64,000 nucleotides of DNA from Candidatus Latescibacterota bacterium (GTDB taxonomy: Bacteria; Latescibacterota; UBA2968; UBA8231). A model generated the notes under the pieces. That model was not told the origin of the DNA, ran no database searches, and saw only the letters and a list, made by a program, of their open reading frames with translations. Position 1 is the first letter of the stretch, and each line of letters begins with the position of its first letter. The stretch spans positions 288,001-352,000 of the forward strand of contig CBDAOB010000003.1 in the NCBI GenBank assembly GCA_965197905.1, read 5' to 3'. Both the position numbers and the translations under genes were made by a program. Of the stretch, positions 4,416 to 62,620 are shown one piece after another.

Positions 4416-4479
4416 GAGCCGTCGGTTTGATGTTATGGGATGTGCCCCTCCGAATTCAAGATAATGTGATCAGCGCTTC

Positions 4480-5085
4480 TCATCGAAGCAGAGTAAACAG
4501 GTCGTCCTGATGGTGACGCGCAGCCCAATGAAGGGGCTTCTGGCCAGCACGATCGAGTACGTTCTTATCTGCGCCGTGTGCCAAAAGCAGGTCTACAAAC
4601 TCTTTGTGGCCATAAGCCGCCGCTAGGTGAAGCGGTGATTCGCCGACTACAGGTGGGGAAGTGTTGAACATGTCGGTTGTGCCCTGCGTGGTTTGACAGT
4701 TCACTTCAGCCCCTTTATCGATGAGAAGTTGACCAATAGATAACAAGCCCTTATACGCCGCGGCCATTAACGGGGTCTCGCCGCTGCCCGAGGTGGCATT
4801 GGGATCCATACCCTGATCGAGAACGAACTGAACGATCTCTTCCTGGTCCTCCCATACGGCCAGATGCAATGCGGTGCCATCCTGGCCCACTGTGTTCAGG
4901 TCTGCACCATGCTCCAAAAGCAACTTGATGATATCTATGTGGCCAAAGGTCGCCATCATCAGTGGGGTACCGCCCTCGGAGTTTTTTGCGTTAATAAGCT
5001 CAGGATCTTTCCTCAGTAGGTTCCGTACCGTCTCAATATCGCCCTTAAACGATGCGTTAAGGATATCTTGTTGATCCTGTTCCAT
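4480..5085 (-). CDS. Ankyrin repeat protein
   Basis: Repeated GxTPLxxA / GADxN motifs. Confidence 0.92.
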   Translation of the reverse strand: MEQDQQDILNASFKGDIETVRNLLRKDPELINAKNSEGGTPLMMATFGHIDIIKLLLEHGADLNTVGQDGTALHLAVWEDQEEIVQFVLDQGMDPNATSGSGETPLMAAAYKGLLSIGQLLIDKGAEVNCQTTQGTTDMFNTSPPVVGESPLHLAAAYGHKEFVDLLLAHGADKNVLDRAGQKPLHWAARHHQDDLFTLLR

Positions 5086-5122
5086 GCGATTCGCTCCTGT
5101 GATTCATAGGTGGCATTTCCCA

Positions 5123-5320
5123 TAACGTTCTCGCCGTGACCGAACCGCGAATGCGGTTGCGCGAAGGGCGCGAGCCCGAGCCGGGCCACGGAGGTGTTAC
5201 AGGACGTGGGGCACTCAAGCGACCGAACAGTTCCCGTACGAGTTTCGCCGGTTTAGCGAACCCGGGCAGCTGGTTGCCAAAGGCCAACGCGCGAGCGCCG
5301 CAGCGCAAAACCTGCTGTTA
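5123..5320 (-). repeat. Two adjacent attC-like sites (5123-5199 family A; about 5240-5320 family B)
   Basis: taacgttctcgccgtgaccgaaccgcgaatgcggtt...gtgtta followed by gccggtttagcgaacc...ctgctgtta. Confidence 0.75.
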
Positions 5321-5339
5321 AGCGAAGGTGCGATCTACA

Positions 5340-5954
5340 CTATCTGAGCACTTCGAGAATCTGCTCAGGACGTTGCCGTTTTTCAGCGTAATCAAAAGGC
5401 GTCTCTCCCTTTGAGGACACCAGTTCCTTGTCGGCACCAGCCGCTAGCAGAAGCTCGATGACCTCTTTGTCTGCGAACGCTGCCGCGAGGTGAAGGGGTG
5501 CCTCGCCATAGGTTCGTGGAGGATCGTCACTGGAAGTCGGAGCGTCATCGTGGCTCCTGTTCACATCAGCGCCCGCCTCAATAAAGAACTCGACCACCTC
5601 AGGCTTGTTCAGCTTGGCACCAATATGGAGACCGGTTAGGCCGTTGACTGCTGAAGGCAGGTTGATATCCGCGCCTGAATCCAGATAGAGCTGCAGGTAC
5701 TCCAATTGGCCACGGCCGGCTGAGAACATCAACAACGTTCCTTCGTCGAATGTATTGTGATTGACATCTGTCCCATTGAGGAAGAGATAGCGCATGATTG
5801 CGCCATGCTCAGAGGTTTCAACCATAGGGGGGATTACAGCCGCAGTGATACAAGAAGCATCCACACCACCCTCTATCAGTTGACTCACACGCTTGTAGTC
5901 GCCTTCTCTGACGGCCAGTTTCAGTAAATCGTTTTGGCCCGTCTGTTCAGACAT
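5340..5954 (-). CDS. Ankyrin repeat protein (start re-assigned to MSEQTG)
   Basis: Ankyrin motifs; GGAGG precedes the ATG at 5954. Confidence 0.88.
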   Translation of the reverse strand: MSEQTGQNDLLKLAVREGDYKRVSQLIEGGVDASCITAAVIPPMVETSEHGAIMRYLFLNGTDVNHNTFDEGTLLMFSAGRGQLEYLQLYLDSGADINLPSAVNGLTGLHIGAKLNKPEVVEFFIEAGADVNRSHDDAPTSSDDPPRTYGEAPLHLAAAFADKEVIELLLAAGADKELVSSKGETPFDYAEKRQRPEQILEVLR

Positions 5955-6058
5955 GTACCCTCCTTGCTGATATATGATGTGGGCTTTACTCCGACAAATA
6001 GAAATTGACCTACCTTCAGCCGCGCCGGCTTCCGGAGCTTCAGGGCTTCGTTCTGCCG

Positions 6059-7051
6059 TTAATAGTCTACACCACGCACGCCGTCGACCACTCTGCCCAG
6101 CGCATCCAGTCGGGAATGGACGTCCGGTGAAAGACGGCCCAAAGCTGCGCAGCCGACGTTTTCCTCCAGTTGTTCCACTGTCGCTGCACCAGGGATCACG
6201 GTGGCTACATCCTTGTCTGCCAGCAGAAATCGCATTGCAAGCGCGGCCAGACTGATCCCGATCTCTTGATGGATCGCATAGAGCTCTGCAAAGCGAGCCC
6301 GAAGGTCGTCGTCCATCCAATCGGGAGGATGTTCTATCCACTCTTCACGAGGAAAGGCCAGTTCCCCCTGCTGCAGAGGCGCCCCGAGTACCACACCTTG
6401 GCCCAATTCCTTGGCCAGTGGCAGAAGGTACTGTCTCGCGTTGCGCCAGATCAGGCTGTACTGAAATCCGACCAGCACGACTTCCACGGGGAGAGTGATC
6501 TCCTGCAGTATCTTTGCCAGGAGGTGAGCATTGTTGCCGGAAATGCCGAGATGCTTCGCCATTCCCTTCTCCTTGGCCCACAACAGGAACTGCGTCACCG
6601 GCGCGTTACCGTAGTCGTAAACGCCGTCTGCGCAGATGTGCCGTGTCTTGCGCGGCGTGACCTCGTCCTGCCAATATACCCTCCAATCGGCCTCGTGGAT
6701 GTAGAGGATGTCCACGCAATCGCGCCGCAGAGCCCGCAGCGTCTGCTCGAACTGCACCTTGAAGGCGTTCAACTCGCGGTACGGACCGGTCCGCCAGTCC
6801 CATCGTCCGCACTTCGTCCCCAATATATATGGTTCCTTTCGCCCCTGGAGAGCTTCCCCTAGGACCTCCTGAGAATTTCCGTAGAGGGGAGCGGTGTCGA
6901 AATAGTTCACTCCCAGTCCCAAAGCGCGATGGACAACACGAGTAGCTTCATCGCGCGCCGTCGCTCCCTCACTGATGAAGGCCCCGCCCAAGCCAACCTC
7001 GGTAACCTCCAGACCTGTCTTTCCCAACGGCCGTTTGCTGATTCCGGTCAT
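6059..7051 (-). CDS. Aldo/keto reductase
   Basis: RPLGKTGLEV, GVNYFDTAPLYG, TVIPGA..VEQLEEN. Confidence 0.92.
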   Translation of the reverse strand: MTGISKRPLGKTGLEVTEVGLGGAFISEGATARDEATRVVHRALGLGVNYFDTAPLYGNSQEVLGEALQGRKEPYILGTKCGRWDWRTGPYRELNAFKVQFEQTLRALRRDCVDILYIHEADWRVYWQDEVTPRKTRHICADGVYDYGNAPVTQFLLWAKEKGMAKHLGISGNNAHLLAKILQEITLPVEVVLVGFQYSLIWRNARQYLLPLAKELGQGVVLGAPLQQGELAFPREEWIEHPPDWMDDDLRARFAELYAIHQEIGISLAALAMRFLLADKDVATVIPGAATVEQLEENVGCAALGRLSPDVHSRLDALGRVVDGVRGVDY

Positions 7052-7107
7052 ACGCCAAGTCTCCTTCGAATGAAATTCCGGCTTGCCCTTGCACACGCCA
7101 AAGGCGT

Positions 7108-7163
7108 CTTACTGCCCGAAGGGCCAAGGCGCCATCGGCGCCGTAGCGTAAACTGCGCTGTTA
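7108..7163 (-). repeat. attC-like site (family B, partial); unoccupied copy of the target of the intron at 12408-13156
   Basis: 7147-7163 (cgtaaactgcgctgtta) is identical to 13157-13173. Confidence 0.75.
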
Positions 7164-7215
7164 ACTGACGTTTCCACAACCGAGCTTGAAACTCTCATGA
7201 GCCGCCAACACTTCG

Positions 7216-7566
7216 CTAGCTGTCCGAGGTGCGCGGCTCACCTCCAAAACGGAGTACATTGCCATCCAAATCGGCGACATGCATCTCGCAAGCCCATGGA
7301 TTATCGATCAAATCGCCTTTGACGTGCGCACCCGACGAACCGAACTCGGCATGAAGTGCTTCAATGTCCTCAACGCCCACCCAGATTCTCCCGCTTGCTT
7401 CTCCGGATAAACTGGCATTCAGGAATATCTTCCAGCCAGCTCGACTCACAGAGGCAAACGAATCCTCGTATGTCCAATCCACATCGAAGCCCAAGGCCTT
7501 CTGATAGTACTCCAGGCTACTGTGAAAGTCGGAACAACTCAGAATGGGAATTATGTTTTCTACCAT
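7216..7566 (-). CDS. VOC/glyoxalase/bleomycin-resistance family protein
   Basis: IPILS...YYQKALGF...DNPW..EMHVADLDGNVLRFG. Confidence 0.9.
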   Translation of the reverse strand: MVENIIPILSCSDFHSSLEYYQKALGFDVDWTYEDSFASVSRAGWKIFLNASLSGEASGRIWVGVEDIEALHAEFGSSGAHVKGDLIDNPWACEMHVADLDGNVLRFGGEPRTSDS

Positions 7567-7730
7567 CTCCGTTTCTCCCTAATCATTTGCCCTCCCAGGT
7601 TTCGCTCTGAAGTCGATCAAATCCTCTTAGACTATCCTCTGGTTTCAGTATCTCTCTGGTGCCCATATTGTATCGGTCACCGGACCTAAGAAAGTAAAAC
7701 CGCCCCGCTCGTCCGAAAGTCCGCTGGTTG

Positions 7731-8399
7731 TCATAGATCGCCACATAGCTTCTCCCAAAGAACCTCGAACTCATCGCCGTGAACGATAATTGCCGTGCCC
7801 TCATCTATCCCTATGCCAAGTAGCTCAGGATGGGCGTCTACTACCTCTAGCATATCATATTGGCGGTTGCGGGCCAGATGATGTTGGTCAATTGACACAT
7901 TCCGGAGAAACCCAAAACCTTTAACGTGGTCACCAATGATGATCTCATGGCCACTCGTATCGCCTCTTATCATGAATGTGCCCTGCAAAGTAGCACCGGC
8001 AGAAGAGCCGCCGATTACGCCGCCGCGATCAAGTAGAGCGAATAGTGCCTCGTGGGTGCGCGTGTTCAGATATGCATCAGTGACCCGCCAATGTCTCCCA
8101 CCCGTGAACCATACACCTTGAGCGTCTCGAAGCTTGGACAAGAATTCCTCTGAGTCCGCAACCTCCCTGTCCCGAGTATGCAAGACGCCGAGATTGTGCG
8201 CTCCAGCCTGCATGAACGCCTCCATATATGGAGCGTATAGGCCAGAGTAGTCCTTTTCGGCCGCGGTGGGCACAAGGACTATGGGTGCACTGCGCCCTCC
8301 GGCCAAGGCGATGAATTTGTGATAGATCTCACCGAGCTCTTCGCCGCCGGCAAGTACCAGTGAGCCATTTTGCGGACCTATATGTGTTTGACCTGGCAA
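7731..8399 (-). CDS. cphB: Cyanophycinase-like S51 peptidase (C-terminus probably frameshifted)
   Basis: GSLVLAGG, FTGG, GGSSAGA, IDQHH..RNR, GIGIDEGTA. Confidence 0.8.
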   Translation of the reverse strand: MPGQTHIGPQNGSLVLAGGEELGEIYHKFIALAGGRSAPIVLVPTAAEKDYSGLYAPYMEAFMQAGAHNLGVLHTRDREVADSEEFLSKLRDAQGVWFTGGRHWRVTDAYLNTRTHEALFALLDRGGVIGGSSAGATLQGTFMIRGDTSGHEIIIGDHVKGFGFLRNVSIDQHHLARNRQYDMLEVVDAHPELLGIGIDEGTAIIVHGDEFEVLWEKLCGDL

Positions 8400-8481
8400 G
8401 ATGACCTCCTACAGACAAATCTCTAGAATCGCGTGTCGCTAACGTTGTCAGCCGGCGTTTATGTCGATGCGATTTTCCGCT

Positions 8482-8543
8482 AACGGCCTGCCGGTTTGCG
8501 AACCCCCAAGCGAGGTATGTAGGGCTGCGTGAACCGAGATGAT
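8482..8543 (-). repeat. Degenerate attC-like site
   Basis: taacggcctgccggtttgcgaacc...gtgaaccgagatgata. Confidence 0.55.
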
Positions 8544-8599
8544 ATCTGATGTGGTTTTTTAAGTTCCCTTTACAAATGAAGGCCAAATAACGTTCCGGA

Positions 8600-9382
8600 T
8601 TATCCTATCTCATTAATCACGTCTGCTGCCCGTCCCTTCTTGATCCACACCCTTCCTTCGGCTTTGGAGTGGGCTTTGGGCTCCACATCACCAAAGGACA
8701 GCATTATGTCGGTGCATGGATTGCCGCGATTACTGTGGAGGAAGTATGCCCGATCGGCCTGAATTCCAGTGCAGACCTCTTCGTGCCCATTCTCGCTTAT
8801 CATAAACGGCTTATCGAGACGGCGTCTGTTGAAACCCCAGAATTCCCGATAGAACACATGGTCGTAGGATTGGTCGCCAATCAAGTACGCCTGAAATGCG
8901 TTGGACTGACCGGCATTTCTTTCCAAGCTTGCAAGAGATGTTATGCTGCCTGAGGACAGCACATAGGTGTCCTCATCGGACCACCATGGCGCATCGAGGA
9001 ACCGAAGGCAGATTGCTCCCCCAGCTTTGTGGAGGGTTTGCTCACCGAGATTGGTCAGTCTGATGCAGAAATCCACAGCGCATTCGTGTGCTACAATGGT
9101 TGCAGTCCACTCAACAGGACCGTCAGCCGGCATGCGGATACCGACACATTCAAAGGTGCCTTCATCAACCTTCAGGAAATTGCCAGGGCCTATGGTGCTT
9201 TCTCCAGAAACGTGCTGCCTTAGTCGCGCGTCATTCCACTCCCATGTGCCGATTGGGTAAATACTTGAAATGCCCGTGTTGCTGGTGATGGCTTCAGGGA
9301 CCCAAAGTAGAAGACGGCCTACCGCCGGAATGCCCGTATCAATCCGAATCCGTGACGTGTTCTCTATAGGTTCGAGTTCCAT
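8600..9382 (-). CDS. Hypothetical protein
   Basis: 260-aa ORF in cassette orientation. Confidence 0.65.
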   Translation of the reverse strand: MELEPIENTSRIRIDTGIPAVGRLLLWVPEAITSNTGISSIYPIGTWEWNDARLRQHVSGESTIGPGNFLKVDEGTFECVGIRMPADGPVEWTATIVAHECAVDFCIRLTNLGEQTLHKAGGAICLRFLDAPWWSDEDTYVLSSGSITSLASLERNAGQSNAFQAYLIGDQSYDHVFYREFWGFNRRRLDKPFMISENGHEEVCTGIQADRAYFLHSNRGNPCTDIMLSFGDVEPKAHSKAEGRVWIKKGRAADVINEIG

Positions 9383-9453
9383 TTTTCCGTTTCACATATC
9401 TTCCAGAATGCGGCCGCCCAATGTCTGCTTTCGATCAGAATCGGGCGGCATCG

Positions 9454-10482
9454 CTACGGGACGATGATGACTTTACCAATTCCCTGTTTTTCGCCCACAC
9501 GCCGGAGAGCTTCCCCCGCATCACAGAGTGGGTAACAGCGATCGACAACCGGTATGACTTTACCCTCCTCAAACAGCTCTCCGATATCAACTAAGTCTTC
9601 ACGCCGCGACTCGGCCAAAAGGAATGCTATCCTGCGACTGCCGAACGTTGAGATTACGGGTCCGAGTAACGCGGACTGCCAGGTCGCCGTACCAGACCCG
9701 CCACCCATCAGATAGATTCCGGACGCAGTCAAAGACCGACGAGACCGAAATACATTTCTGTACGCCGCCATGTCGAGGATGACGTCGTACCGTTTCCCGT
9801 TTCGATTGAAATCTACCTGCATGTAGTCAATTACGTGATCCGCACCAATTGATCTCAGCATCTCGAGCTTCGTAGGCCCGTCAACCCCGGCAACATCGGC
9901 GCCGTACATTTTGGCTAGCTGCACAGCCAGAGTCCCCGCACCACCACCGGCACCATTGATCAGGACTGTTTGGCCGGGCTGAACCTGTGCCTTGTCACGG
10001 ATTGCTTGTAGGGCGATGTGTGTTGCCTGCGGTAGGGCCGCCGCTTGCTCAAAGGACATACTCGCGGGTTTGTTGACCATCGGAGCCGTCTCCGAGACGC
10101 ACACATATTCAGCAAAGGCACCGAATCCCTCTGCCATCCCAAAGACCTCGTCGTTCACTTGAAACTGAGTGACGCTCTTACCCACGGCTTCAACACGCCC
10201 TGCAATGTCCGTCCCAAGGATCTTGGCTTTGGGTGGGAATATGCCGCCCTTTTCCGCCGTCACGCTTGTAGGCGGGAATTCGTACTGCTGTTCGCGAGAA
10301 AACAAGTGCGCCAATACGCTGATGAAAAGAGGACGTCCGGTTAGTAGCTCCCAGTCTCCCAGGTTGATCGACGCGGCACAGACGCGTATCAAGATCTCGT
10401 TATCCGAGGGCGAGGGAGTAGCGACATCTTCGAGCTTCAAGACTTCTGGAAGCCCGTACACTTGTCGAACAGCAGCTTTCAC
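9454..10482 (-). CDS. MDR-superfamily NAD(P)-dependent alcohol dehydrogenase / quinone oxidoreductase
   Basis: YGLPEVL, LGTDIAG.VEAVG, VLINGAGGGAG, GKVII. Confidence 0.92.
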   Translation of the reverse strand: MKAAVRQVYGLPEVLKLEDVATPSPSDNEILIRVCAASINLGDWELLTGRPLFISVLAHLFSREQQYEFPPTSVTAEKGGIFPPKAKILGTDIAGRVEAVGKSVTQFQVNDEVFGMAEGFGAFAEYVCVSETAPMVNKPASMSFEQAAALPQATHIALQAIRDKAQVQPGQTVLINGAGGGAGTLAVQLAKMYGADVAGVDGPTKLEMLRSIGADHVIDYMQVDFNRNGKRYDVILDMAAYRNVFRSRRSLTASGIYLMGGGSGTATWQSALLGPVISTFGSRRIAFLLAESRREDLVDIGELFEEGKVIPVVDRCYPLCDAGEALRRVGEKQGIGKVIIVP

Positions 10483-10551
10483 AGCAACACCCTTGGGAAC
10501 CGGATCGGAGATATACGCTTAGATTCTAGTTCTTCTTTTCCCATTTCGGAT

Positions 10552-10635
10552 ATCGTTTCTCGTGTTTGCGAACCCGAAGCGCAGCGGAGGGTTGCCGCAA
10601 CGCGGCGCAGGCCGCGCAGTGCAAAAACGATGTTA
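10552..10635 (-). repeat. attC-like site (family B)
   Basis: gtttgcgaaccc...gcaaaaacgatgtta palindrome between genes. Confidence 0.7.
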
Positions 10636-10723
10636 TCAGAAGTGAGTCTCTCCTTGCCAATCTGCAAGAGATCTCCCTGAGGCACCCCAATGGACACTTC
10701 AGAGCGGAGACCGTCGACCCCTT

Positions 10724-11488
10724 TCAAAGTCTCAGGCACGCTTCCACAGCGAGCCAGAAGAGCTCTTCTCTGGCTGATATCTTCTGTCCGAATTCTCTGG
10801 GATCCCACTCAATTCCGCCAACATCGTCGCCTCCGTATAACAGTTGCCCAATCTGCACGCCCCGGAACTGCGCTACAGCAAAAAACGCGGCGGCCTCCAT
10901 CTCAACTGTTATGCAGCCCTCGGACTTGCGTTTGGCCACCTTTGCCTTTGTTTCTCGGTAGAATGCATCCGTCGTCCAGGTCATTCCCTGGGTGTAACTG
11001 CATCCATGCAAGTCGAGTGTTTGGATGATTGCTTCGACTGCGAGTGGGGATGGATGTACCTCGCGACTGGGAGCCAGGTAGTGATAGGACGTGCCCTCGT
11101 CCCTTATGGCGGAAGTCGGCACAACAATATCTCCACTACCGATCGACTGGTCTAGGACTCCTGCGCCGCCAGATACGATGAATTTCCGCCCTCCACGAGC
11201 GATGATCTCCTCTCGGCATCCAGCAGCCAACGGCGCACCAACGGGTGATGGAACTATCGCCAGAGTTTGCCCTTCATACCTTCCAGAGAAAACCTGGATC
11301 TCGCCCATCTCAGTTTTGAAGGGCGGCAACGCTTCGCATTCAAGTTGGTCCTTCACACTCTCTATGATCTCTTTGAAGAAGCAAATCACACAGTATTCTG
11401 GCACGTCACGATGCTTGATCACCTTTGCCGGCTCAATGACCGCGTCTCGCTGCGGGTCGAACTCCAGGATCGGGAAGGAGTGCGACAT
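10724..11488 (-). CDS. Nucleoside phosphorylase (PNP/UDP family)
   Basis: AIRDEGTSYHY, TWTTDAFYRET, VEMEAAA. Confidence 0.92.
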   Translation of the reverse strand: MSHSFPILEFDPQRDAVIEPAKVIKHRDVPEYCVICFFKEIIESVKDQLECEALPPFKTEMGEIQVFSGRYEGQTLAIVPSPVGAPLAAGCREEIIARGGRKFIVSGGAGVLDQSIGSGDIVVPTSAIRDEGTSYHYLAPSREVHPSPLAVEAIIQTLDLHGCSYTQGMTWTTDAFYRETKAKVAKRKSEGCITVEMEAAAFFAVAQFRGVQIGQLLYGGDDVGGIEWDPREFGQKISAREELFWLAVEACLRL

Positions 11489-11533
11489 CGTCTAACGCCA
11501 TTCCGTCGAACGAATCGTTTTAGTCATTTCTGA

Positions 11534-11609
11534 TAATGATTTCGCCGTGCCCGAACCGCGAAGCGGTTGGGCGAAGGGCGTAGCCCGAGGCCGGGACACG
11601 GACGTGTTA
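11534..11609 (-). repeat. attC-like site (family A)
   Basis: tcgccgtgcccgaaccgcgaagcggtt...cacggacgtgtta. Confidence 0.8.
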
Positions 11610-11638
11610 TAGGTCGTTGTGTTTCTATTTGATTCATG

Positions 11639-11944
11639 CTATTTAGTTGCAGAGCGCGGTCGGACTTCTCGACTTAGGCGTTCTGCAAGCGCATCCTCCG
11701 CTTGATCGAGCTCATAGTCCATTTGAAGACCAAGCCAGAACTGGGGTGACATGTCGAAGTAACGGGCTAAACGCAATGCCGTATCGGCCGTAACACCTCT
11801 CTTGCCCAAGGCAATCTCGTTGATTCGGCGCGGTGGTACGCCAAGGGCCAGTGCCAACCGGTTCTGACTGAGTTCCATTGGCTTGAGAAATTCTTCCAAC
11901 AGGACTTCGCCGGGATGTAATGGGGTTATTTTCTTCTTTGCCAC
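11639..11944 (-). CDS. higA: HigA antitoxin
   Basis: HPGEVLLEEFL, RINEI..GKR..TADTALRL, FWLGLQ. Confidence 0.93.
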   Translation of the reverse strand: MAKKKITPLHPGEVLLEEFLKPMELSQNRLALALGVPPRRINEIALGKRGVTADTALRLARYFDMSPQFWLGLQMDYELDQAEDALAERLSREVRPRSATK

Positions 11945-11953
11945 GGTAGCCTC

Positions 11954-12235
11954 CTAGTGATAATCTGCAATTTTCACGTTGTAGGCGTCACCGCCTTGCC
12001 AATCAAAGCAGATGCGCCATTGGTCATTGATTCGAATACTGTATTGTCCAATTCTGCCGCCCCGCAGCTTCTTTAAGCGATTTGCCGGCGGCACCCTCGG
12101 ATCGTTCAATGTCATCGACCGGTTTAGCATACGGAGTTTGCGAAACGCAACGGATTGAATGGCGCGCGGCAATTTTCGTGAGCCTTGGCGCGAAAAGATG
12201 CGTTCAGTCTCCCGATCGCGAAATGACCTGATCAT
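11954..12235 (-). CDS. higB: HigB (RelE/ParE-type) toxin
   Basis: MIRSFRD..., PPANRL, GQYSIRINDQWRICF, DYH. Confidence 0.92.
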   Translation of the reverse strand: MIRSFRDRETERIFSRQGSRKLPRAIQSVAFRKLRMLNRSMTLNDPRVPPANRLKKLRGGRIGQYSIRINDQWRICFDWQGGDAYNVKIADYH

Positions 12236-12407
12236 ACCACAATTATATAACGCACTACGTTTAACGCAACCCGTTATGACGATGACATGCCTTAAAGTTG
12301 CGAACCAGTGTTTTCGCAATGACCTATGACGTTATGCCGGTTTGCGAACCTGGACGAGTAACAGAAGGCAGGTTGCCCGAAGGGTCGAGGCGCCGCAGGC
12401 GCCGATG

Positions 12408-13156: not shown

Positions 13157-13205
13157 CGTAAACTGCGCTGTTACCCGATGTGTCAAACCACCCGACGCAC
13201 CGGCA

Positions 13206-53837: not shown

Positions 53838-53908
53838 GTTACCGAACCTGCGAAGCAGGTTGCCAAAGGGCCAAGCCGCGTATGCGGCGCAGCGGTAAGT
53901 CTTTGTTA
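53838..53908 (-). repeat. attC-like site (family B)
   Basis: ttaccgaacctgcgaagcaggtt...cggtaagtctttgtta. Confidence 0.78.
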
Positions 53909-53990
53909 AATGACGTGCGGTACGAGTGGCCCAGAGCAGAGTGCCAGAGCGGCTCCTTGACACCGCCCATACCCTCTCGCCAGCATCAAC

Positions 53991-54878
53991 TCATTTAGAA
54001 GATGTGACTGCCCCCAACACGGCTCCGAGTTGTTTCGTGAGGTATGGCGATTCTTTCCTCATCTCACTTACTGACTCCATCAATGGGAAAGCAGGCGCGT
54101 GCCAGTCTCCGTGCCTGTCGTTCACCCGTCTCCCGGTCACGACTTGCGAGTCCTGAGTGTAGCTCTTGAGTCGGTCAATCCCTTCCGCAATGACGACCTT
54201 AGGAAGGGGTTTTCGTCTTCGCCGGGACCACTCCACGAGGTAATAGAGACCTCGCAGGATGTCATATTCGAAAAAGCGGGGGGAAAACGGCTTCAGCCAC
54301 TCGGGATTTACGACACTTCCATTTCCCTTCGAACAAACCAACCGGTGCTCAATCAGGTATCGCGCTCCATTGTCGAGGAATCTTGCCTCCGCATCCGTGT
54401 ACTCACGATCCGTGAAGAATAACACGGCTTCTAAGGGCGGCAGACTGGAAACGATCGAACTCTTACCCGACTTCAGATAGGAGCCCGGGTCACAGTTCAG
54501 TCCTCCATCCGAAAGTTGATGCTTCAGAAACCAATTTCTAATCCACGGCAGATCAGCCTCTACATTGCATCCACAGGCCGACAGGGTCATATAGAATACG
54601 CCCAACTCACAGTGGCAGCAGTCCATTTTTGCTTTGTCTGCTTCTGTCTGCGGAGCATCATCTTCGGTAATGACGAACTTCTGCCAAGCTCCATGCTTGA
54701 GCTGCTCCAACGCGCTGTTCACAGCTAACCGGGGAATCCGTGTCATTTCCCCCATTTCGCACAGAATTGCCAGCTGCCACCATGCCCCGTCCCATTTCCT
54801 TCTGCTCCCTTGGTCCGGTACCGAGAATGCGCCTTCGGACGAAATTACCTCAATTGCTGACTCGACTGCTTTGTCCAT
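53991..54878 (-). CDS. Hypothetical protein with prenyltransferase/squalene-cyclase-like repeat
   Basis: WFLKHQLSDGGLNC, FFEYDILRGL. Confidence 0.65.
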   Translation of the reverse strand: MDKAVESAIEVISSEGAFSVPDQGSRRKWDGAWWQLAILCEMGEMTRIPRLAVNSALEQLKHGAWQKFVITEDDAPQTEADKAKMDCCHCELGVFYMTLSACGCNVEADLPWIRNWFLKHQLSDGGLNCDPGSYLKSGKSSIVSSLPPLEAVLFFTDREYTDAEARFLDNGARYLIEHRLVCSKGNGSVVNPEWLKPFSPRFFEYDILRGLYYLVEWSRRRRKPLPKVVIAEGIDRLKSYTQDSQVVTGRRVNDRHGDWHAPAFPLMESVSEMRKESPYLTKQLGAVLGAVTSSK

Positions 54879-54927
54879 GTTGGTGCCTCCATTAGCGAGT
54901 ATGTTGTCGCCCTCCACCCATGTCATT

Positions 54928-55081
54928 TAACTTCCTCCAGACGAACCATCCGTCCTGGCACGAATCCCAGATTGGTTCCATAGACGCATCAAACGTGCGG
55001 AAATTGGCGCACTGTCACAAGCGGCATCCGAACGCCTCATCCCAGCGACAGGGCCAAGGGAGATGCAGCGGCAACCGGTTA
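54928..55081 (-). repeat. Family C long attC-like element
   Basis: taacttcctccagacgaacc...atccgaacgcctcatcccagcgacagggcc...ggtta. Confidence 0.7.
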
Positions 55082-55096
55082 CAGGAAGAGAGACTC

Positions 55097-55462
55097 TCAA
55101 CCGTCGTTTCGGAGGAACAACGGGCGTCGAATGAACGCTGCGACACCAAAAAGAACAACCAGTACCAAATGACCCACGACGGCACCCCAACCAGCATCGT
55201 GCATCAAGTGAGTCGTGGTTGCCCCAACCATAATCGCTGCAGCCAGCAGTCCAGCGTAACCCATGGCAGGTCGAATCAAGAGGCCGATCCCAACAATGAC
55301 CTCGAGCACCCCAATGACATAGACGATATTGTCTGAGTACCCCCACGTTGCGAACATTTCAGCCCATCTTGGCTGCAAGAGCTTCTGAACGCCAGGTCCA
55401 CCAATAATCAAAGCTAGTAGCCCTTGCAGCACCCACGCTGCAATTCTCATCGGCTTATTCAT
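55097..55462 (-). CDS. DoxX-family membrane protein
   Basis: WVLQGLLA..G..KL, F..WGY, IGVLEV..GIGLLI, GA..THL. Confidence 0.88.
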   Translation of the reverse strand: MNKPMRIAAWVLQGLLALIIGGPGVQKLLQPRWAEMFATWGYSDNIVYVIGVLEVIVGIGLLIRPAMGYAGLLAAAIMVGATTTHLMHDAGWGAVVGHLVLVVLFGVAAFIRRPLFLRNDG

Positions 55463-55526
55463 AGATCCCCTCTTTAGATAGAGCAACGATAACCGCGTCT
55501 GAATTTGGCCTTCTCTTTTCCTGTGT

Positions 55527-55605
55527 CGTTATGCCGGTTTGCGAACCACGAAGCAGCCTGCCGAAGGCCCAGCGCCGAATGGCGCGCAGCGTGAATCGCT
55601 GTAAT
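55527..55605 (-). repeat. attC-like site (family B)
   Basis: gttatgccggtttgcgaacc...ggcccagcgccgaatggcgcgcagcgtgaatcg. Confidence 0.7.
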
Positions 55606-55676
55606 ATCTGATATGGGACCAACCTCCTCATTTTTAAGGAAATCCCATATCTATCTGTCAATGATCACAGTCGGCC

Positions 55677-56525
55677 TCATTCAGCCAGCAGTTCGTCGAT
55701 GTGGTTTGACAAGGCGACTACCAAGTCCTCTGCTCCATCACGGCCAACGTGTCGCAGGCGCAATCCGCCGCTCTTTCCGATGAGGATGGATTGAGGAAGT
55801 GGACTTGCCTGAAATAGACCGCTCAGGTGACCCGATGTATCTATACCTACCCGGAATGCGTATGGATGTCGCCTGACGAAACGCTGAACTGTCTCGATGT
55901 CCTCGCCGCGATTTATGGCGACGAGAACAAAGTCATCTCTGTCCTTGTACTTCTCCTGGATCGTCACGATATCGGGCATTTGGGCAATGCATGGCACGCA
56001 CCAACTAGTCCAAAAATCTAGCAGGACGACACGACCGTTCAGGTCCTCGGAACTCAGCACAGTGCCATCCAGCAGCGAAACGTTGAACGTTCCAATCGTG
56101 GAATTGCCTTCCTCCGTTGAGATCCGAGAGACGTAGCTCGGCGCCACGAAGAGGTACACCAGAAGAAGAAACACGGCCCAGGCCCCTAGCGGAAACCGGA
56201 TGCGCTCAATCAAAAACGGCCCGGTTCGAAGCCAGAGGCCAAGCACTGTGCTCGGCAGGGCAACGCTGAGAAAGAGCAGATAGTGCTCCTGGTGTTCATC
56301 CCACATGAAAAGAGAGAGTATCAACAGGGGTAGGCAGAGTTCGGTGGCCCGTCTGTAGACTTGGCTGGGCGGCCCAGAGCCAAGAACGATACCGGCTGCC
56401 ATGGCAACTGCGGCGGTCAGGACACAAGCTAGATCCGTGCTTCCAAGAAAGCCGAACGCAACACTAACGACGATGGCGAGTAGGCACCCCAGAACCAGGG
56501 TGATGACATCTTTGAGAATGCTCAT
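55677..56525 (-). CDS. Membrane-anchored TlpA/redoxin disulfide reductase
   Basis: Several TMs, then VVLLDFWTSWCVPC. Confidence 0.9.
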   Translation of the reverse strand: MSILKDVITLVLGCLLAIVVSVAFGFLGSTDLACVLTAAVAMAAGIVLGSGPPSQVYRRATELCLPLLILSLFMWDEHQEHYLLFLSVALPSTVLGLWLRTGPFLIERIRFPLGAWAVFLLLVYLFVAPSYVSRISTEEGNSTIGTFNVSLLDGTVLSSEDLNGRVVLLDFWTSWCVPCIAQMPDIVTIQEKYKDRDDFVLVAINRGEDIETVQRFVRRHPYAFRVGIDTSGHLSGLFQASPLPQSILIGKSGGLRLRHVGRDGAEDLVVALSNHIDELLAE

Positions 56526-56638
56526 GTAAGCGACCTCGATCTTCGGCCTGGCGGGTGGCCTTCAACCAGGGAATGTGGCGACAGCCTCGGGCTCACCGAT
56601 TCGTCGTCTCGCTAACTGGCAATTAAGCGGCGAAAATT

Positions 56639-56671
56639 CGGTATATCTCCCTTCATGCTGGAGATATACCG
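56639..56671. other. 12-bp-stem hairpin; homologous copy at 57826-57856
   Basis: cggtatatctcc-cttcatgct-ggagatataccg. Confidence 0.7.
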
Positions 56672-56701
56672 CGTAGATTCCGGTTTTTCTTATCCCATGT
56701 C

Positions 56702-56806
56702 ATATATCTTCCTCAAGACGAACCGTCGGTCCTGGCACGAATCTCAGATCGTTTCCATAGATCCGAACGCCTCGTCCCAGCGACAGGCCAGGGAGCGGTG
56801 CATTAT
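56702..56806 (-). repeat. Family C attC-like element (internally deleted relative to 54928)
   Basis: cttcctcaagacgaacc...atccgaacgcctcgtcccagcgacagg. Confidence 0.7.
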
Positions 56807-56847
56807 ATGACGTGGGACGCTTTGCGTCCAACTGAGCAAACTGTACC

Positions 56848-57609
56848 CTATTGCTTGTCGTTGCGTATCCATTTCGCAACATAATCCAACTCGTCGCTTG
56901 GTACGACGTGCCCCCCGGGAAAAAGGCGAAGAGTCGCCTCGAATCCTTCGCCGGTAAGATGATCGCGGGCTCGTTCTGAAGTAGCGACGGCGGCCCACTC
57001 GTCCTGCTCTCCGTGCAAAAATAGAAGAGAAATACGGTGGGCCGATTTCAGTGCGGATGTGTCGAACCACGCAGGCTCATATTCCGACAATCCGAAAGTA
57101 ATTGCACCTTCGAACAACTCGCTGGCGTATATGCAGGTCTGCACGGCGACGCGAGCACCCTGGGAGAATCCCAGCACGTACACATCATCGATCTCGTATC
57201 GCTGTTGTACCGCGCTCACGGCTCCCGGCAGGGATTCGGTAACCATCAATCGCCTGGCTTTTTCCTGCAAAGCGGCATCCCCTTTGTTGTAGAGAGTCCA
57301 GTCATATCCAAGCCCCCACTCTGACACAAACGCATACGGCGACTCCGGTAGTGCCACCAGGAAACCAGCCTCGGCCAACTGCTCCGCGGGCTCCTGAAAC
57401 TTCTCTACCGAGTTGGCGTAACCATGGAGCACCAGCGTCCGAGGCTTTTCTGGGACATAATTAGGCGGGAGTATCATTTGAATCGGCACGAGAGCCTTCG
57501 TCTCCTGCCAAAATGTCTCTGTTGCTGTCGTTGACATTACATCCTCCGCCCGGATAGCAAGTGGGATGAGCAACATCACCACAACTGCGGTGACACCCAG
57601 TTTATTCAT
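56848..57609 (-). CDS. Exported alpha/beta hydrolase (phospholipase/carboxylesterase)
   Basis: LHGY, GFSQG, HGEQD, GGH. Confidence 0.88.
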   Translation of the reverse strand: MNKLGVTAVVVMLLIPLAIRAEDVMSTTATETFWQETKALVPIQMILPPNYVPEKPRTLVLHGYANSVEKFQEPAEQLAEAGFLVALPESPYAFVSEWGLGYDWTLYNKGDAALQEKARRLMVTESLPGAVSAVQQRYEIDDVYVLGFSQGARVAVQTCIYASELFEGAITFGLSEYEPAWFDTSALKSAHRISLLFLHGEQDEWAAVATSERARDHLTGEGFEATLRLFPGGHVVPSDELDYVAKWIRNDKQ

Positions 57610-57642
57610 GATTCAAGCCTCTCGGTTCTTTTCCCATGTCAA

Positions 57643-57965
57643 GTATCGCCGGTGTGCGAAGCGCGCGGCGGCTTGCCGAAAGCCCAGCGCCGAACGGCGC
57701 GCTGCGTCGAATTCCGTGATATATGAAGTGGAACATTCAGCTCTCGGAGGCGTCCAGTACTCCGTCTTGTCGAGCAGAAGAACAATATTCACCGAGTATA
57801 GACGAACCGATCCGGGCCTGAACATGGTATATCTCCGTTTACGCTGGAGATATGCCGGATGGGATCTGATTCTTCTACCTCCAGTTCATGTATCGGCTCG
57901 CGGCCACATGAACCGGCGAAGCCGGTTTGGCGAAGGAGAATGCCGAAGCCATGTGGCCGCTGTTA
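57643..57965 (-). repeat. Two attC-like sites (57643-57721; 57891-57965) bounding a roughly 175-bp gene-less cassette
   Basis: Both share gaa(c/g)cg..cgaa..cg(g)tt-type hairpins; spacer ends gatatatgaagtgg / ccagttcatgtatc are inverted repeats. Confidence 0.65.
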
Positions 57966-58007
57966 CACGACGTCAGTATCGCATGGATTCGACAAAGTCA
58001 TCTGTTG

Positions 58008-58574
58008 TCATCGTCTTGCTATCGAATAGAGCAACAGATCGATAACTCGTCCATGTATTGTATCCGCGTTTTCGAGCAACTGTTCCTGTGCAAACCCAAG
58101 GCGTTGGAGCAATCGGGCGCTGGGTGTGTTACCAACAGCTGAACAAGCCACCACCCGATCTCTATCTAGAACATCGAATGCATAAGCGATCAAGCGACGA
58201 CCGCAGATAGCCGCGACCCACTTGCCCTGATACTGTGCGCCAACCCAGCATTCGAGTTCGATGGCGTTCGGCTGCTCCGCGACGCTAAGGAAGGAAACCC
58301 AACCAGCAACCTTCCCTTCATAGAGCATACAGAAGGCAGGGCCCTTGCCGCTTTTGCCTTTGTCGCGGTCCTCGATGATGGTTTCCATCTCGTTCATCGA
58401 ACGAATCGCGCCAACCCAGGGTATCCACTCGTTGAGAAAATTCCGGTCAGCTTCAATCAGCGCGAAAAGCCCGACTGCGTCCTTCGGCTGCGCCGAACGT
58501 AAGCCTATCCGAGGTGTCAACTGCTCATCCAGTCGGACAGGAAATCCCATTTTAGGCTCGTGATCGACAACCAC
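58008..58574 (-). CDS. RimJ/RimL-type GNAT acetyltransferase
   Basis: FL.EWIPWV, YQGK, N.PS.RLLQRLGF. Confidence 0.85.
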   Translation of the reverse strand: MVVDHEPKMGFPVRLDEQLTPRIGLRSAQPKDAVGLFALIEADRNFLNEWIPWVGAIRSMNEMETIIEDRDKGKSGKGPAFCMLYEGKVAGWVSFLSVAEQPNAIELECWVGAQYQGKWVAAICGRRLIAYAFDVLDRDRVVACSAVGNTPSARLLQRLGFAQEQLLENADTIHGRVIDLLLYSIARR

Positions 58575-58599
58575 AACTCGTAACTCTTCTCTATCTGGT

Positions 58600-58665
58600 C
58601 ATGAGTGCCCGAAACCTGCGCAGAATTTTTCTCGAAGCGAAGCGGAGGCGGGCACTCGGGGTGAG
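58600..58665 (-). repeat. Degenerate attC-like site (similar to 53196)
   Basis: gagtgcccg/cgggcactc stem. Confidence 0.6.
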
Positions 58666-58676
58666 ACGAATGGCTT

Positions 58677-59744
58677 TCAATCACAATAGATATTGGTAAG
58701 GCTTCGTGATCGATGTGCGTTGCTCAGGACGTCCGTACTATCTGCAAACTGATCGACGCTGCCTACCAGAGGCTGCCGCTTCAACCACTCGTCGCGGATA
58801 CATGCCAAGCATGCGTCCGCAAAGCGATCGCCCCCAAGAACGCGAAAAGGGCGTTCGTGGAACAAGCGGACATCAGGATCGACGGGAGTGGTGAGGTGCA
58901 GTTCATTGTAACAACGTGCGACATATGCATATGCAGAACAAAGCGCCTCTTCGCGAGCGGCGTGGTCAATGGCCACGAGTGCCGTGTCGAGGTGCGGAGC
59001 GAGGCCAGAAGCTATACGGAGGCTTCTGAATGCGCTGCCCAGCCACTTGCTATACGGGGTATATCGCTTCTCTATAAGGAAGCAGAGCCTTATGAGATCG
59101 CGTACGATTCGAGCCGTTAGGATTTGCGAGCCTAGTTCATCACCTACTTCGGCTGTCCGGCCAACAAACGCCTCTTCCTGAGCGATCCGGCGCCACTGGC
59201 AGGCCAAGAGCCAAAGCCAGATGTCGTTTGGATACCACTTCAGTTTACTGCGAACGCGTTTCAAATCTCCCTCAGGATCGTAAAAGACCGCACCTTCTGT
59301 CACTTCCAGCAATAGCTGTTGTGGCGCAGTAAGCCAGTTTTGGGAAGTAATATCCCCTTGCGGATTGAATCCTAGATGAGATTCAAGCCATTCCTCGAGG
59401 GGTGCGACATTCACATGGTGTTGGACGGCGACCTCGTCCCAGCCAAAGCGAACAGGCCACCCATGGAACTCACTTGGCAAGCCGGAATCGATAGCTGCGC
59501 GAGTGGCGACTACCTCTGAAGCGGCGACAAAAACATGCAGCTGTGGTCCCCAGCCATGATCCGTTGACCGAGAGGTATCAAAACCTAGAACATCCGACCC
59601 TGAACCTAACCTGGCTGCGCTGTGAACTCGCTCTCCCATGAGAGGACGAACAGCTTCGATGTAGAACATCCGAGCTAAATCGACACCACTCACAAAGTCG
59701 GTGCCATCGGTGGGTGTATTGCTGGATTCAGGTCTCGAAGTCAC
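58677..59744 (-). CDS. DUF4037-domain protein
   Basis: LGSGSDVLGFD..RSTDHGWGP, AQEEAFVGR, PYSKWLG. Confidence 0.85.
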   Translation of the reverse strand: MTSRPESSNTPTDGTDFVSGVDLARMFYIEAVRPLMGERVHSAARLGSGSDVLGFDTSRSTDHGWGPQLHVFVAASEVVATRAAIDSGLPSEFHGWPVRFGWDEVAVQHHVNVAPLEEWLESHLGFNPQGDITSQNWLTAPQQLLLEVTEGAVFYDPEGDLKRVRSKLKWYPNDIWLWLLACQWRRIAQEEAFVGRTAEVGDELGSQILTARIVRDLIRLCFLIEKRYTPYSKWLGSAFRSLRIASGLAPHLDTALVAIDHAAREEALCSAYAYVARCYNELHLTTPVDPDVRLFHERPFRVLGGDRFADACLACIRDEWLKRQPLVGSVDQFADSTDVLSNAHRSRSLTNIYCD

Positions 59745-59764
59745 TTCTTATAGCGCCGTTCGTC

Positions 59765-59895
59765 TAACGTTCTCTGTGACCCGAACCGCGAACGCGGTTG
59801 CGCGAAGGGCCCGAAGTCGGGCAACGGACGTGTCAATGACGAGGGGTTGCCCGAAGGACCAAGGAGCGTCAGCGTAGCGCAACACCGCGGTGTTA
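59765..59895 (-). repeat. attC-like site (family A) followed by a partial family B site
   Basis: taacgttctctgtgacccgaaccgcgaacgcggtt...; ggttgcccgaagg...ccgcggtgtta. Confidence 0.72.
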
Positions 59896-59942
59896 TGTGG
59901 ACTCACACGAGCAGAAAAGCATGTATGTGCTGAATCTTCCGC

Positions 59943-60494
59943 TCATGCCGAAATACTTTGCCGCTTCGATTCAATTGCTGGTTTGGTGGCCTCGTACGCG
60001 GAATCCGTCAACTGGTTTCTGGATCGTTCGACTTTTCGCTCGAAGACATCGAGCTCGTCATGCGTAAATTCAAGCCTCGGCATAAACTCGAGGTAGTTTG
60101 CCACCTCCATTTCAATGAGGTCGCGCAGTTCAGCTTGGGTAACTGGAATCTCCTCGTTAGTTGCCCGGTTACTAAGTTTCGCATCACCATCTCCCAGAGC
60201 CTCAAAGAAGCCTGCGCGAATGGTCATGCTGAACAGGAACGCTAAACGCTCTGCTCGTTCCCCAATCACCTCGCGGATACGTTGACGATCATCGAGTGAA
60301 GCCGATTCCGTCTCGTAGGATTGCGTGCCATAGATGCTGTGAAACAGCCCACTCACGCAAACGGCCTTATCATTGCCCCAGGTCTTGAGGTAGCCATGAG
60401 TTCCTTGTAGATGATCCAATAAGGCCCCGCCGCTGTGCGGGTTCTTCTCAGTATTCAGCTCATGTAGCAGCTGCAAGTGACTCTGATCAATCAT
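59943..60494 (-). CDS. HD-like (DUF6817-like) protein
   Basis: HSGG.LLDHL.GT...GLFHSIYGT, IGERAERLAFLF. Confidence 0.75.
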   Translation of the reverse strand: MIDQSHLQLLHELNTEKNPHSGGALLDHLQGTHGYLKTWGNDKAVCVSGLFHSIYGTQSYETESASLDDRQRIREVIGERAERLAFLFSMTIRAGFFEALGDGDAKLSNRATNEEIPVTQAELRDLIEMEVANYLEFMPRLEFTHDELDVFERKVERSRNQLTDSAYEATKPAIESKRQSISA

Positions 60495-60602
60495 GATTCG
60501 CCCTTCCCGATTCGTGGAAGACTATATCCATGGGAGTCATAACGTTGCCACCGTTCCCCAACCGCGAATGCGGTTGCGCGAAGGGTGCATGGCCGAAGCC
60601 GG

Positions 60603-61429
60603 GTAGGGTCGAGGACTGGCGCGCCAGCATTAGGGTCCGGTGGGTACTCCATCACTTTCGCAATGGCCCTCAGTCCGGCTCCCATCGTCACGTTTCCAGC
60701 CCCCGCCGCTTCAAACCGTACGTGAGGTTCTCCCTCATACGGCTTACCGACAACCTTCAGCTTGTAGCATGCGAGACTTGGATTGTTCGGCCCATCACGA
60801 CCGACCACATGCGACCAGGGCCGAATAATCTACCTCTCTTGGCAGTCAAGCATAGCCTGCGCAGGAGTTATCGTGATTTGTGAAGTGGTGTGGTTGGCCC
60901 TCTCGGGCATGCACCGTCACTTACCTCCTCGCTGGGCATGGTTGAAGCAGGGATCCTTCCCTCCGACCGAGTTATGTTGTCTCGATCATCCACGGTAGTA
61001 TGACCCCCTCCGACTTCTCATGGGACATCTTCCCGGATTTCACCTTCCGGCTTATACCAGAAATTACAGCGGATGTGGGCCGCTGATCCCATGAGATCTC
61101 CCTTGTTCCACCACTGACTGTCCCCACATTCCACTCCCTCTACGCCGGAGAGTCCTTCGAGGTTGCACGTCCAGATTCTTCACCTCTTCCGTGGCCTTCG
61201 CCCTCCGTGCCCTGGGCTCGGCTCTCTCTGGTCCCTTTCGGGTTAACATTACGACGCGGCAGGATTCCCTTGATGGTACGGACTATGGGGTTGCACCTCG
61301 TTCACAGAGGGATACACCGCTTCAGCACCTCCAGTCACCCGGAAGCACTGGGCGCCTGCTATGGGGCTCTCTGGTGATTACCCCAACCGGACTTTCACCG
61401 GTAAGTCAATGGCAGCTTGCAAGGCACAC
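60603..61429 (-). ncRNA. ORF-less group II intron inserted in an attC-like site (site spans 60540-61443)
   Basis: 5' GUGUG at 61429; domain V taagccgtatgagggagaacctcacgtacggtttg; 3' cgacccuAC at 60603; removal restores gaagccgggcacgg..gtgtta. Confidence 0.9.
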
Positions 61430-61475
61430 GCACGGTCGTGTTAGCCGAAGGCAAAATTGCAATTCATAGGCGCCG

Positions 61476-62507
61476 TCATGACAGCGCATCCTGGATTACG
61501 GTCGCTTCGTTAAGCCAAAAGCGCATGAAACGAACGACCCGGTCGCACTCCGCCATCTCCTCCTCACTTGCTGGCACTTGAGCCCCGCCAGCTGTTGGCC
61601 ACATAGCAGCACAAATGTATGGAAACAGCTCTATCTCCCTTTGGCTCAGTGGGGGTCCTTCCTGGAGATAGCAGTTAACCCAGTGCGCAACGTCGCTTAC
61701 AACTGGTATTTCAGTGCGTTGCCACGTGAAGCCGTCGTAATCCTCAACGAGAGGACCCCATCCAAGCCCAATGTCGATGGCACGAGCGACGTCCTGTATC
61801 CTTGGCGCTAACCTGGCCGTGTCCCAGTCGATCACGCCAACGACGGCATCACCGTCATAGCGACAGTGGTACTGACAGAACTCGCCGTGCACTGGCACGT
61901 GGGGTAACGTGAACCAGTCCTCCAGAATCAGAAATGACCTGATATTGAAAAGGATCTCACGCATCTCATCTATGCACTCGAGTACAATCTGCCGGCTTGA
62001 GGTCGAAATCTGACTGTCTCTCAGATACCCCCGCCCATTGTGGTTGAAGGCCTGGGAATACTCGAATCCCTCGTCGCAGTCCCAGTAACATTTGCCTAGG
62101 CCGCAAGCGACACTCGCCTCGCGATGAAACCACCCTTAAGCGGCGGCACAGGTATCGCATTGTTTCGGTCTTCTTCGTGGGTCAAAGGGCTCCCCAACCC
62201 ACTCCACCACAAAAGCGCCAAGATCGTTTCGATCCCAGACCACATCACCCTCGACAGTACGTAACACGGCAGGGATTGGATACCCGATCTCGTGGAGATA
62301 CCACTGAAGGTCAAATTTGAAACTCGTATCCGAGTCGAACACACCGGTCCATCCGGTCTTCGCAATGTAACGCTGAGAGCCTACAGAAAAACCGATCACA
62401 TGCTCGTGGCGTGGTCTGAACACATGAATGTCGTGAGGTTCGCCTTGCAGACCATAGGCGGCGACGAGTGTGTCCACTATTTCGGCCGCAGCCGAATCCG
62501 TTGTCAT
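61476..62507 (-). pseudogene. Phosphotransferase (homoserine kinase II/APH-like), frameshifted
   Basis: YIAK, GYPIP; VHGEF...VGVIDWD. Confidence 0.75.
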
Positions 62508-62555
62508 GCCAACGCTACTTTTGTGGCGATGTCCCTAACAAAAATTGCTCTCGGC

Positions 62556-62620
62556 TAACGTTCTCGCCGTGCCCGAACCGCGAAGCGGTTGCGCGAAGGG
62601 CGAGCCCCGAATCGCTAACA
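62556..62620 (-). repeat. attC-like site (family A, right part degenerate)
   Basis: taacgttctcgccgtgcccgaaccgcgaagcggttgcgcgaagggcgagccc. Confidence 0.75.

What the first reader, a model, noticed from the sequence alone, without database searches (positions are those of the whole stretch)
4432..62559. Cassette-specific 14-16 bp terminal inverted repeats with a conserved G-T wobble at position 11
Seen: the two ends of the SAME cassette are complementary well past the 7-bp core, and the sequence changes with each cassette. Pairs: 4432/5112-5126 (gttatgggatgtgcc vs ggcatttcccataac); 10632/11522-11537; 11606/12317-12330; 23640/24275-24289 (14/15); 24366/25002-25016 (14/15); 25087/26012-26027 (15/16); 52540/53185-53199 (14/15); 53905/54917-54931; 58661/59755-59768; 61440/62545-62559. 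In all ten pairs position 11 is not Watson-Crick but a G-T (once T-G) wobble on the + strand. Established: complementarity of the 7-bp R'' with the cassette's own R' is expected for integron cassettes. I do not know of an extended outer stem with an invariant wobble. Inference: this could be an extra structural determinant for the recombinase in the circular or ssDNA intermediate, or a scar of how cassettes are made. This is the strongest candidate for an undescribed mechanism in the window.
Basis: partly seen in the sequence, partly recalled or inferred. Interest (0 to 1): 0.9.

Follow-up and report, generated by a model that had tools for sequence, protein, structure and literature searches.

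The report
Wobble-marked arms on integron-like cassettes
The two ends of each swappable gene cassette here can pair into a stem of about 15 bases with one fixed G-T mispair, longer than in classical integrons, and in related genomes such arrays start next to a recombinase that lacks the part integron integrases use to pick the correct DNA strand, so the mispair may be an alternative strand marker.

Summary
All ten pairs check out, and the + strand is the attC bottom strand. In 163 site-anchored cassettes from this genome and relatives, Watson-Crick pairing resumes after position 11: 0.68 at positions 12-16, against 0.35 for shuffled or hybrid pairings (0 of 2000 shuffles). Pairing to 9-11 nt is published (Bouvier 2009). 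Vibrio (n=86) and environmental IntI cassettes (n=41) fall to background after positions 11 and 8, with no fixed wobble. The wobble is not cassette-specific: it is a fixed G on R'' facing a fixed T on R', and occurs in 77% of hybrid sites too. At 8 of 8 array heads examined, a dif-like site lies 140-325 bp from a tyrosine recombinase lacking the IntI insertion, also in genomes where no IntI was found. This window's array has no recombinase, and the genome's copy is broken. Best reading (inferred, 0.55): the stem is that recombinase's binding arm, and the wobble marks the bottom strand in place of IntI's extrahelical-base readout. This scan noted the same system on other DNA. My searches found no paper on it.

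The parts
1409..62617 (-). Decaying cassette array (CALIN). Cassette genes lie on the minus strand, so + is the attC bottom strand. It continues to about C3:363.2 kb; no recombinase gene beside it.
   Evidence: nhmmer site map, ORFs, tblastn
4432..4446 (+). R'' arm, ankyrin-repeat cassette (G at position 11); upstream body decayed
5112..5126 (+). cognate R' arm (T at position 11); inferred crossover AA|C at its end
   Evidence: crossover position by analogy with attC
10555..10631 (+). attC-like body, branched hairpin
10632..11537 (+). cassette (PNP/UDP phosphorylase family) with arms 10632-10645 and 11524-11537
11538..11605 (+). attC-like body, type A
11606..12330 (+). cassette with arms 11606-11619 and 12317-12330
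12408..13150 (-). short group II intron-like element inserted in the attC body that begins at 12331 (its R'' is at 13170)
23559..23639 (+). attC-like body, type B
23640..24289 (+). cassette (DUF1706) with 15-nt arms; wobble G23650 / T24279
24290..24365 (+). attC-like body, type B
24366..25016 (+). cassette (YscJ/FliF-family domain) with 15-nt arms; wobble G24376 / T25006
25017..25086 (+). attC-like body, type A
25087..26027 (+). cassette (5'-3' exonuclease) with 16-nt arms; wobble G25097 / T26017
52540..53199 (+). cassette (NUDIX) with 15-nt arms
53830..53904 (+). attC-like body, type B
53905..54931 (+). cassette with arms pairing to position 13 and at 15; following body decayed
58661..59768 (+). 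cassette (DUF4037); the one T-G wobble at position 11
60604..61430 (-). second group II intron-like insert in an attC body; right end approximate
61440..62559 (+). cassette with 15-nt arms (position 10 also unpaired)

Best explanation
The paired ends are the outer (R) arm of a single-strand recombination site in an integron-like system run by a tyrosine recombinase that lacks the IntI insertion. Shown: each cassette's R' and R'' pair over about 15-16 nt on the bottom strand, with fixed TTA (2-4), G (8) and a G-T pair (11), and free but co-varying letters elsewhere. Shown: arrays begin at a dif-like site (TAA, 6-bp spacer, GTA-NNN-GAA) next to the insertion-less recombinase. Inferred: an excised circle folds its bottom strand into a full binding arm, as CTXphi does for XerC/D, is exchanged at AA|C with the head site, and is resolved by replication. 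Inferred: T11 on the cleaved strand is read by the enzyme; G is the partner that still pairs with it on the bottom strand while leaving a C-A mismatch on the top strand, so the wobble selects the strand without an I2 helix. Inferred: hybrid sites in the array lose the cassette-specific pairs, which favours insertion over excision. The window's array is orphaned.
For: Cognate vs shuffled pairing. Absence of the pattern in Vibrio and environmental IntI arrays. A-C-type (top-strand) wobble at 11 in 0 of 163. Circular bottom strand folds at -32.0 kcal/mol vs -24.7 for hybrid (lower in 120 of 126) and vs -28.9 for top strand (lower in 115 of 126). Recombinase at the head end in 8 of 8 heads, first cassette cognate at 13-15 of 16; head-site motif in 13 heads; similar sites or end pairs within about 5 kb of 11 of 16 further recombinase loci. 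GLR-to-RH spacing 93-94 aa vs 134-137 in IntI. No IntI at E<=1e-60 in array-bearing genomes G004, G020, G017 (one contig each, all candidates scored). Six copies of a recombinase + IS91-type transposase unit in G083 carry the same stem and wobble and each is followed by a different R' arm.
Against: No biochemistry: enzyme-site pairing rests on linkage. This window's array has no recombinase, the genome's copy (C2:37995-37160) has an internal deletion, and the genome also holds an intact IntI 84 kb away that could act in trans. 4 of 16 recombinase loci showed no sites (2 at contig ends). The site model is lineage-trained, so its silence near foreign IntIs is partly expected. G-T excess on attC bottom strands is a known general skew (PMC5027507). 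About a quarter of pairs lack the wobble. The genomes are kin, so the permutation test overstates independence. The G083 insertions could be the work of the IS91-type transposase rather than the recombinase.
Confidence: 0.55

Rival explanations
1. Same enzyme and sites, but the stem is only a folding clamp for a weak, branched hairpin, and the wobble is a frozen case of the general G/T skew of attC bottom strands, not read by the protein.
For: Known excess of G-T pairs on bottom strands (PMC5027507 passages). Stem adds about 7 kcal/mol. The bottom-strand advantage already exists with 7-nt arms (-1.96 kcal/mol, 106 of 126).
Against: A skew would scatter wobbles; here G-T is 77% at one position and at most 6% at positions 12-22. 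Position 8 is G on both arms in 97%, which points to base reading.
Confidence: 0.2
2. An ordinary IntI integron remnant with lineage-specific long arms, served in trans by the genome's IntI; the neighbouring Xer-like gene is a passenger.
For: Intact IntI in this genome (368 bits). Conserved AAC/GTT cores. Arms of 9-11 nt are normal; the aadA2 cassette pairs over 12 nt.
Against: No such site within 10 kb of that IntI or in the other IntI-centred loci. No IntI found in three single-contig array-bearing genomes. No conserved G16 or T23/24. Insertion-less gene at 8 of 8 heads.
Confidence: 0.12
3. The complementarity is a scar of cassette birth or of hairpin-templated copying of one end onto the other, with no role in recognition.
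For: Arms are inherited with the cassette: homologues above 80% identity have near-identical arms. Near-identical arms among unrelated cassettes are more frequent than expected (25 pairs at <=1 difference; 6.0 expected for all pairs with independent columns, max 14).
Against: Copying would erase a fixed mismatch. Diverged homologues change both arms and keep the wobble. Pairing stops near 16-17 nt.
Confidence: 0.1

Closest known systems
Sedentary chromosomal integrons and CALINs (IntI, attI, attC)
   Same: Co-oriented single-gene cassettes, AAC/GTT cores, bottom strand that folds better and carries GAA loops, head site holding the first cassette's R', self-pairing beyond 7 nt (9-11 nt published).
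   Different: Pairing continues to 15-16 nt past a fixed G-T; Vibrio and environmental IntI cassettes do not. No conserved extrahelical G16/T24; branched body; L stem offset by 3 nt in 114 of 205 sites. Linked recombinase lacks the IntI insertion.
Xer/dif and CTXphi attP(+) (IMEX)
   Same: An insertion-less tyrosine recombinase acting on a folded single strand with 11-bp arms, one strand exchange, replication resolution; dif has a 6-bp spacer (PMC4246890 passages), as the head site here.
   Different: One dedicated recombinase beside a cassette array rather than host XerC/XerD; arms vary from cassette to cassette.
'Integron-like' subgroup of tyrosine recombinases found in IS91/IS3 elements (Smyshlyaev et al., 10.1101/542381)
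   Same: Closest kin of IntI, lacking its insertion (passage); Phage_int_SAM_4 plus Phage_integrase; G083/G084 units pair it with an IS91-type transposase.
   Different: In the passages read, no cassette arrays or recombination sites are assigned to these enzymes.

Membership tests
Integron (IntI/attI/attC) | Tandem, co-oriented gene cassettes separated by foldable sites with AAC/GTT cores | tested here: met
   top-strand ORF covers >60% of the cassette in 108 of 135
Integron (IntI/attI/attC) | Linked integrase carries the IntI-specific insertion (I2) | tested here: not met
   Head-linked recombinases lack about 40 aa and score 211-224 bits, under the TIGR02249 cut-off of 265. The genome's IntI has no such site within 10 kb.
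Integron (IntI/attI/attC) | attC with conserved extrahelical G16 and T23/24 | tested here: not met
   In 205 bodies, position 16 is C42/A33/G16% and 23/24 are A55% and G40% (3'-anchored, ungapped)
Integron (IntI/attI/attC) | R'/R'' self-pairing of 7 to 9-11 nt | tested here: met
   Met and exceeded: continues to 15-16 nt after the wobble
Integron (IntI/attI/attC) | attI-type head site next to the recombinase gene | tested here: met
   Met at 8 of 8 heads in relatives and on contig C2; not found for this window's own array
Integron (IntI/attI/attC) | Bottom-strand-specific recombination with replicative resolution | not testable with these tools
   Only folding energies
Integron (IntI/attI/attC) | Cassette promoter Pc | not tested
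   no promoter scan was run
CALIN | Cluster of sites with no integrase nearby | tested here: met
   Window array: no recombinase hit near C3:289-363 kb
Xer/dif | Inverted arms around a 6-bp spacer | tested here: met
   Head site: GA at 12 nt after AAC in 9 of 13, 13 nt in 3, 14 nt in 1
Xer/dif | Enzyme is XerC or XerD | tested here: not met
   175 bits against cut-offs of 330-335; groups with IntI, not with the two Xer-like rows

The most novel reading that the evidence does not exclude
These arrays are a living pre-IntI kind of integron. A recombinase without the I2 helix captures cassettes through a Xer-length arm split between the cassette's two ends, a single G-T wobble encodes strand choice, and loss of cassette-specific pairing in the array sets direction. 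IntI arose from within this enzyme group (IntI nested among these enzymes, weak support, two-row outgroup) and swapped the wobble code for extrahelical-base reading.
Probability: 0.35. Interest if true: 0.9.

Novelty: new variant of a known kind. Interest (0 to 1): 0.72.

Why it matters
The I2 helix is held to be necessary for cassette capture and unique to IntI, and intermediates are said to be lacking (PMC7790495 passages). A cassette system with an I2-less enzyme and a different strand mark would supply a natural intermediate and make the origin of integrons testable with two point changes in a standard assay. It could also explain some CALINs, since IntegronFinder requires the IntI-specific domain, and the arm pattern gives a sequence signature for finding such arrays.

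Tried and rejected
Start-codon or stop-codon explanation: ATG at 11-13 in 46 of 108 cassettes but in frame with the gene in only 7; stop codon within 16 nt of the end in 14 of 108; rejected. Cherry-picking: rejected by body-anchored and held-out tests. General integron property: rejected for Vibrio (positions 12-16 0.195 vs 0.215 permuted, 883 of 1000; G-T at 11 0%) and environmental IntI arrays (0.32 vs 0.28, 63 of 1000; G-T at 11 in 5 of 41). Class 1 cassettes were barely sampled: 2 pairs by the finder and 2 read by eye. The covariance model came out without base pairs and was not used. The energy-only site finder was noisy and was replaced by an L-box filter, which missed most Vibrio sites, so those were found by nhmmer. 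Rfam has no family for these sites. Rowe-Magnus 2003, the source of the 9-11 nt statement, is not held. Richard 2024, Larouche 2011, Loot 2017 and Nivina 2020 passages gave nothing on an outer wobble. No structure or complex prediction was run.
Full report
Setting. The window is G000:C3:288001-352000. The genome's IntI has its closest relative (95% identical) in a record titled Candidatus Latescibacterota. Repeated hairpin elements separate ORFs on the minus strand. An iterated nhmmer model found 29 on C3, 28 on C2 and a few on C1, C4 and C5. Their GAA loops and lower folding energy lie on the + strand, which makes + the attC bottom strand by the criteria in PMC5027507 (passages).

Observation. 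All ten pairs are as described: G-T at position 11 in 9, T-G in 1. To avoid selection I anchored ends on the site body and core only, paired each R'' with the next R' within 2.5 kb, and kept mis-pairs (169 pairs, 163 after removing duplicates). Positions 12-16 pair at 0.68, against 0.35 in hybrid sites (n=206) and 0.345+-0.016 in within-genome permutations, 0 of 2000. This genome alone (n=33) gives 0.66 vs 0.32, 0 of 2000. Positions 17-22 are at background here (778 of 2000) and slightly above it in relatives. A held-out set of 38 pairs gave a weaker but clear signal, 0.48 vs 0.32. Position 11 is G-T in 126 of 163, Watson-Crick in 10% and never the top-strand type. It is G-T in 77% of hybrids as well, so it consists of a conserved G on R'' (85%) and a conserved T on R' (91%). 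Position 8 is G on both arms (97%). Position 10 is often T-T or T-G (43 of 130 core-matched pairs).

Controls. Bouvier 2009 states that self-pairing extends to 9-11 consecutive nt for most cassettes (PMC2727003, passage). My controls agree and stop there. In 86 Vibrio cassettes pairing is high to position 9, about 0.55-0.6 at 10-11, and at background at 12-16, with no G-T at 11. In 41 cassettes beside environmental IntIs it ends at position 8. Class 1 was sampled by only four cassettes, none with the wobble.

The enzyme. This genome's IntI is 84 kb from the window and has no such site within 10 kb. The C2 array ends beside a Xer-like gene with an internal deletion. Array-bearing relatives G004, G020 and G017 (one contig each, 91-93% complete, all candidates scored) gave no IntI match at E<=1e-60; G011 and G015 also gave none, but not all their candidates were scored. 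At 8 of 8 array heads examined, the first cassette has cognate arms (13-15 of 16) and ends 140-325 bp from a recombinase, divergent in 4 and co-oriented in 4. These proteins keep the catalytic motifs but lack about 40 residues of IntI; their best PDB match is VchIntIA in two pieces. Thirteen head sites read TAA, 6-bp spacer, GTA-NNN-GAA, an inverted copy of the arm consensus. Of 16 further loci centred on such genes, 11 had these sites or end pairs within about 5 kb, 1 was the IS91 unit below, and 4 had none. No site was found in the IntI-centred loci L039-L118, L125-L143, L160 and L178-L181, though the model is lineage-trained. In G083 six copies (97.8-100% identical) of a recombinase plus IS91-type transposase unit have the same stem and wobble, their own hairpin, and a different R' arm after each copy. 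A 38-row tree places IntI as one well-supported branch among these enzymes, with open forks around it and only two Xer-like rows for a root. The lead to look for a non-IntI enzyme came from an earlier scan note; the tests above are mine.

Mechanism. Shown: sequence anatomy, linkage, folding energies (circle -32.0, hybrid -24.7, circle top strand -28.9 kcal/mol, n=126), and paired changes in diverged homologous cassettes, for example 7 of 10 variable positions on both arms at 54% protein identity with the wobble kept. From the literature: Xer enzymes, which lack I2, recombine the folded CTXphi strand using 11-bp arms and one exchange (PMC4246890, passages); I2 docks attC extrahelical bases (PMC7790495, passages). 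Inferred: the stem is the binding arm; T11 is read; G11 keeps the bottom strand paired while spoiling the top strand; hybrids recombine less well than circles. The sites lack the conserved G16 and T24, which fits an enzyme with no pocket for them. None of the inferred steps was tested.

Novelty. Eight searches on the sites and enzymes and one on IS91 recombinases found no description of the wobble arm or of arrays run by insertion-less enzymes. The enzyme subgroup itself is described, as partner of IS91/IS3 (10.1101/542381, passage). All papers were seen as search listings or passages, none whole, no supplements; subscription journals were not searchable and Rowe-Magnus 2003 was not held. Earlier notes of this scan report a 15-20 nt stem with a fixed wobble and the insertion-less enzyme in other genomes; they are not independent evidence. 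Verdict: real, a new variant of the integron idea that fails the IntI and extrahelical-base tests but works like an integron; interest 0.72.

Noticed in passing
window 12408-13150 and 60604-about 61430: Short group II intron-like element on the cassette-gene strand, inserted inside attC bodies. 14 matches of its end in the genome; 7 are in the arrays, most inside attC-like bodies. Orientation differs from what I recall for group IIC-attC introns (recalled, not checked).
   Followed up: partly
window 27017-28816: Group II intron reverse transcriptase/maturase on the + strand with domain V/VI at 28718-28816; 5' end not located.
   Followed up: no
L177:9409-11827, L182-L186 (G083); L179, L187, L188 (G084): Recombinase plus IS91-type transposase packaged as a multi-copy cassette with wobble arms; in G083 each copy is followed by a different R' arm, a possible selfish cassette.
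   Followed up: partly
L001 (G000:C3:204281-205219): Intact 420-aa IntI with an N-terminal extension and only isolated canonical-attC candidates nearby.
   Followed up: partly
G000 C1 end and C2 start: Both contig ends carry same-strand array sites, so they may be one array headed by the broken recombinase on C2.
   Followed up: no
L021:6050-6085, L031, L035, L145, L170: Head sites of the divergent group carry a further inverted arm-like repeat right after the inner arm, able to form a hairpin.
   Followed up: no
window 13903-14202 / 17731-18030 and 38787-39086 / 39232-39531: Near-identical direct repeats of at least 300 nt.
   Followed up: no
attC bodies, e.g. window 24290-24365: Branched bodies with two or three small hairpins and conserved CGAA motifs; GAA at body position 16-17 in 175 of 205.
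   Followed up: partly
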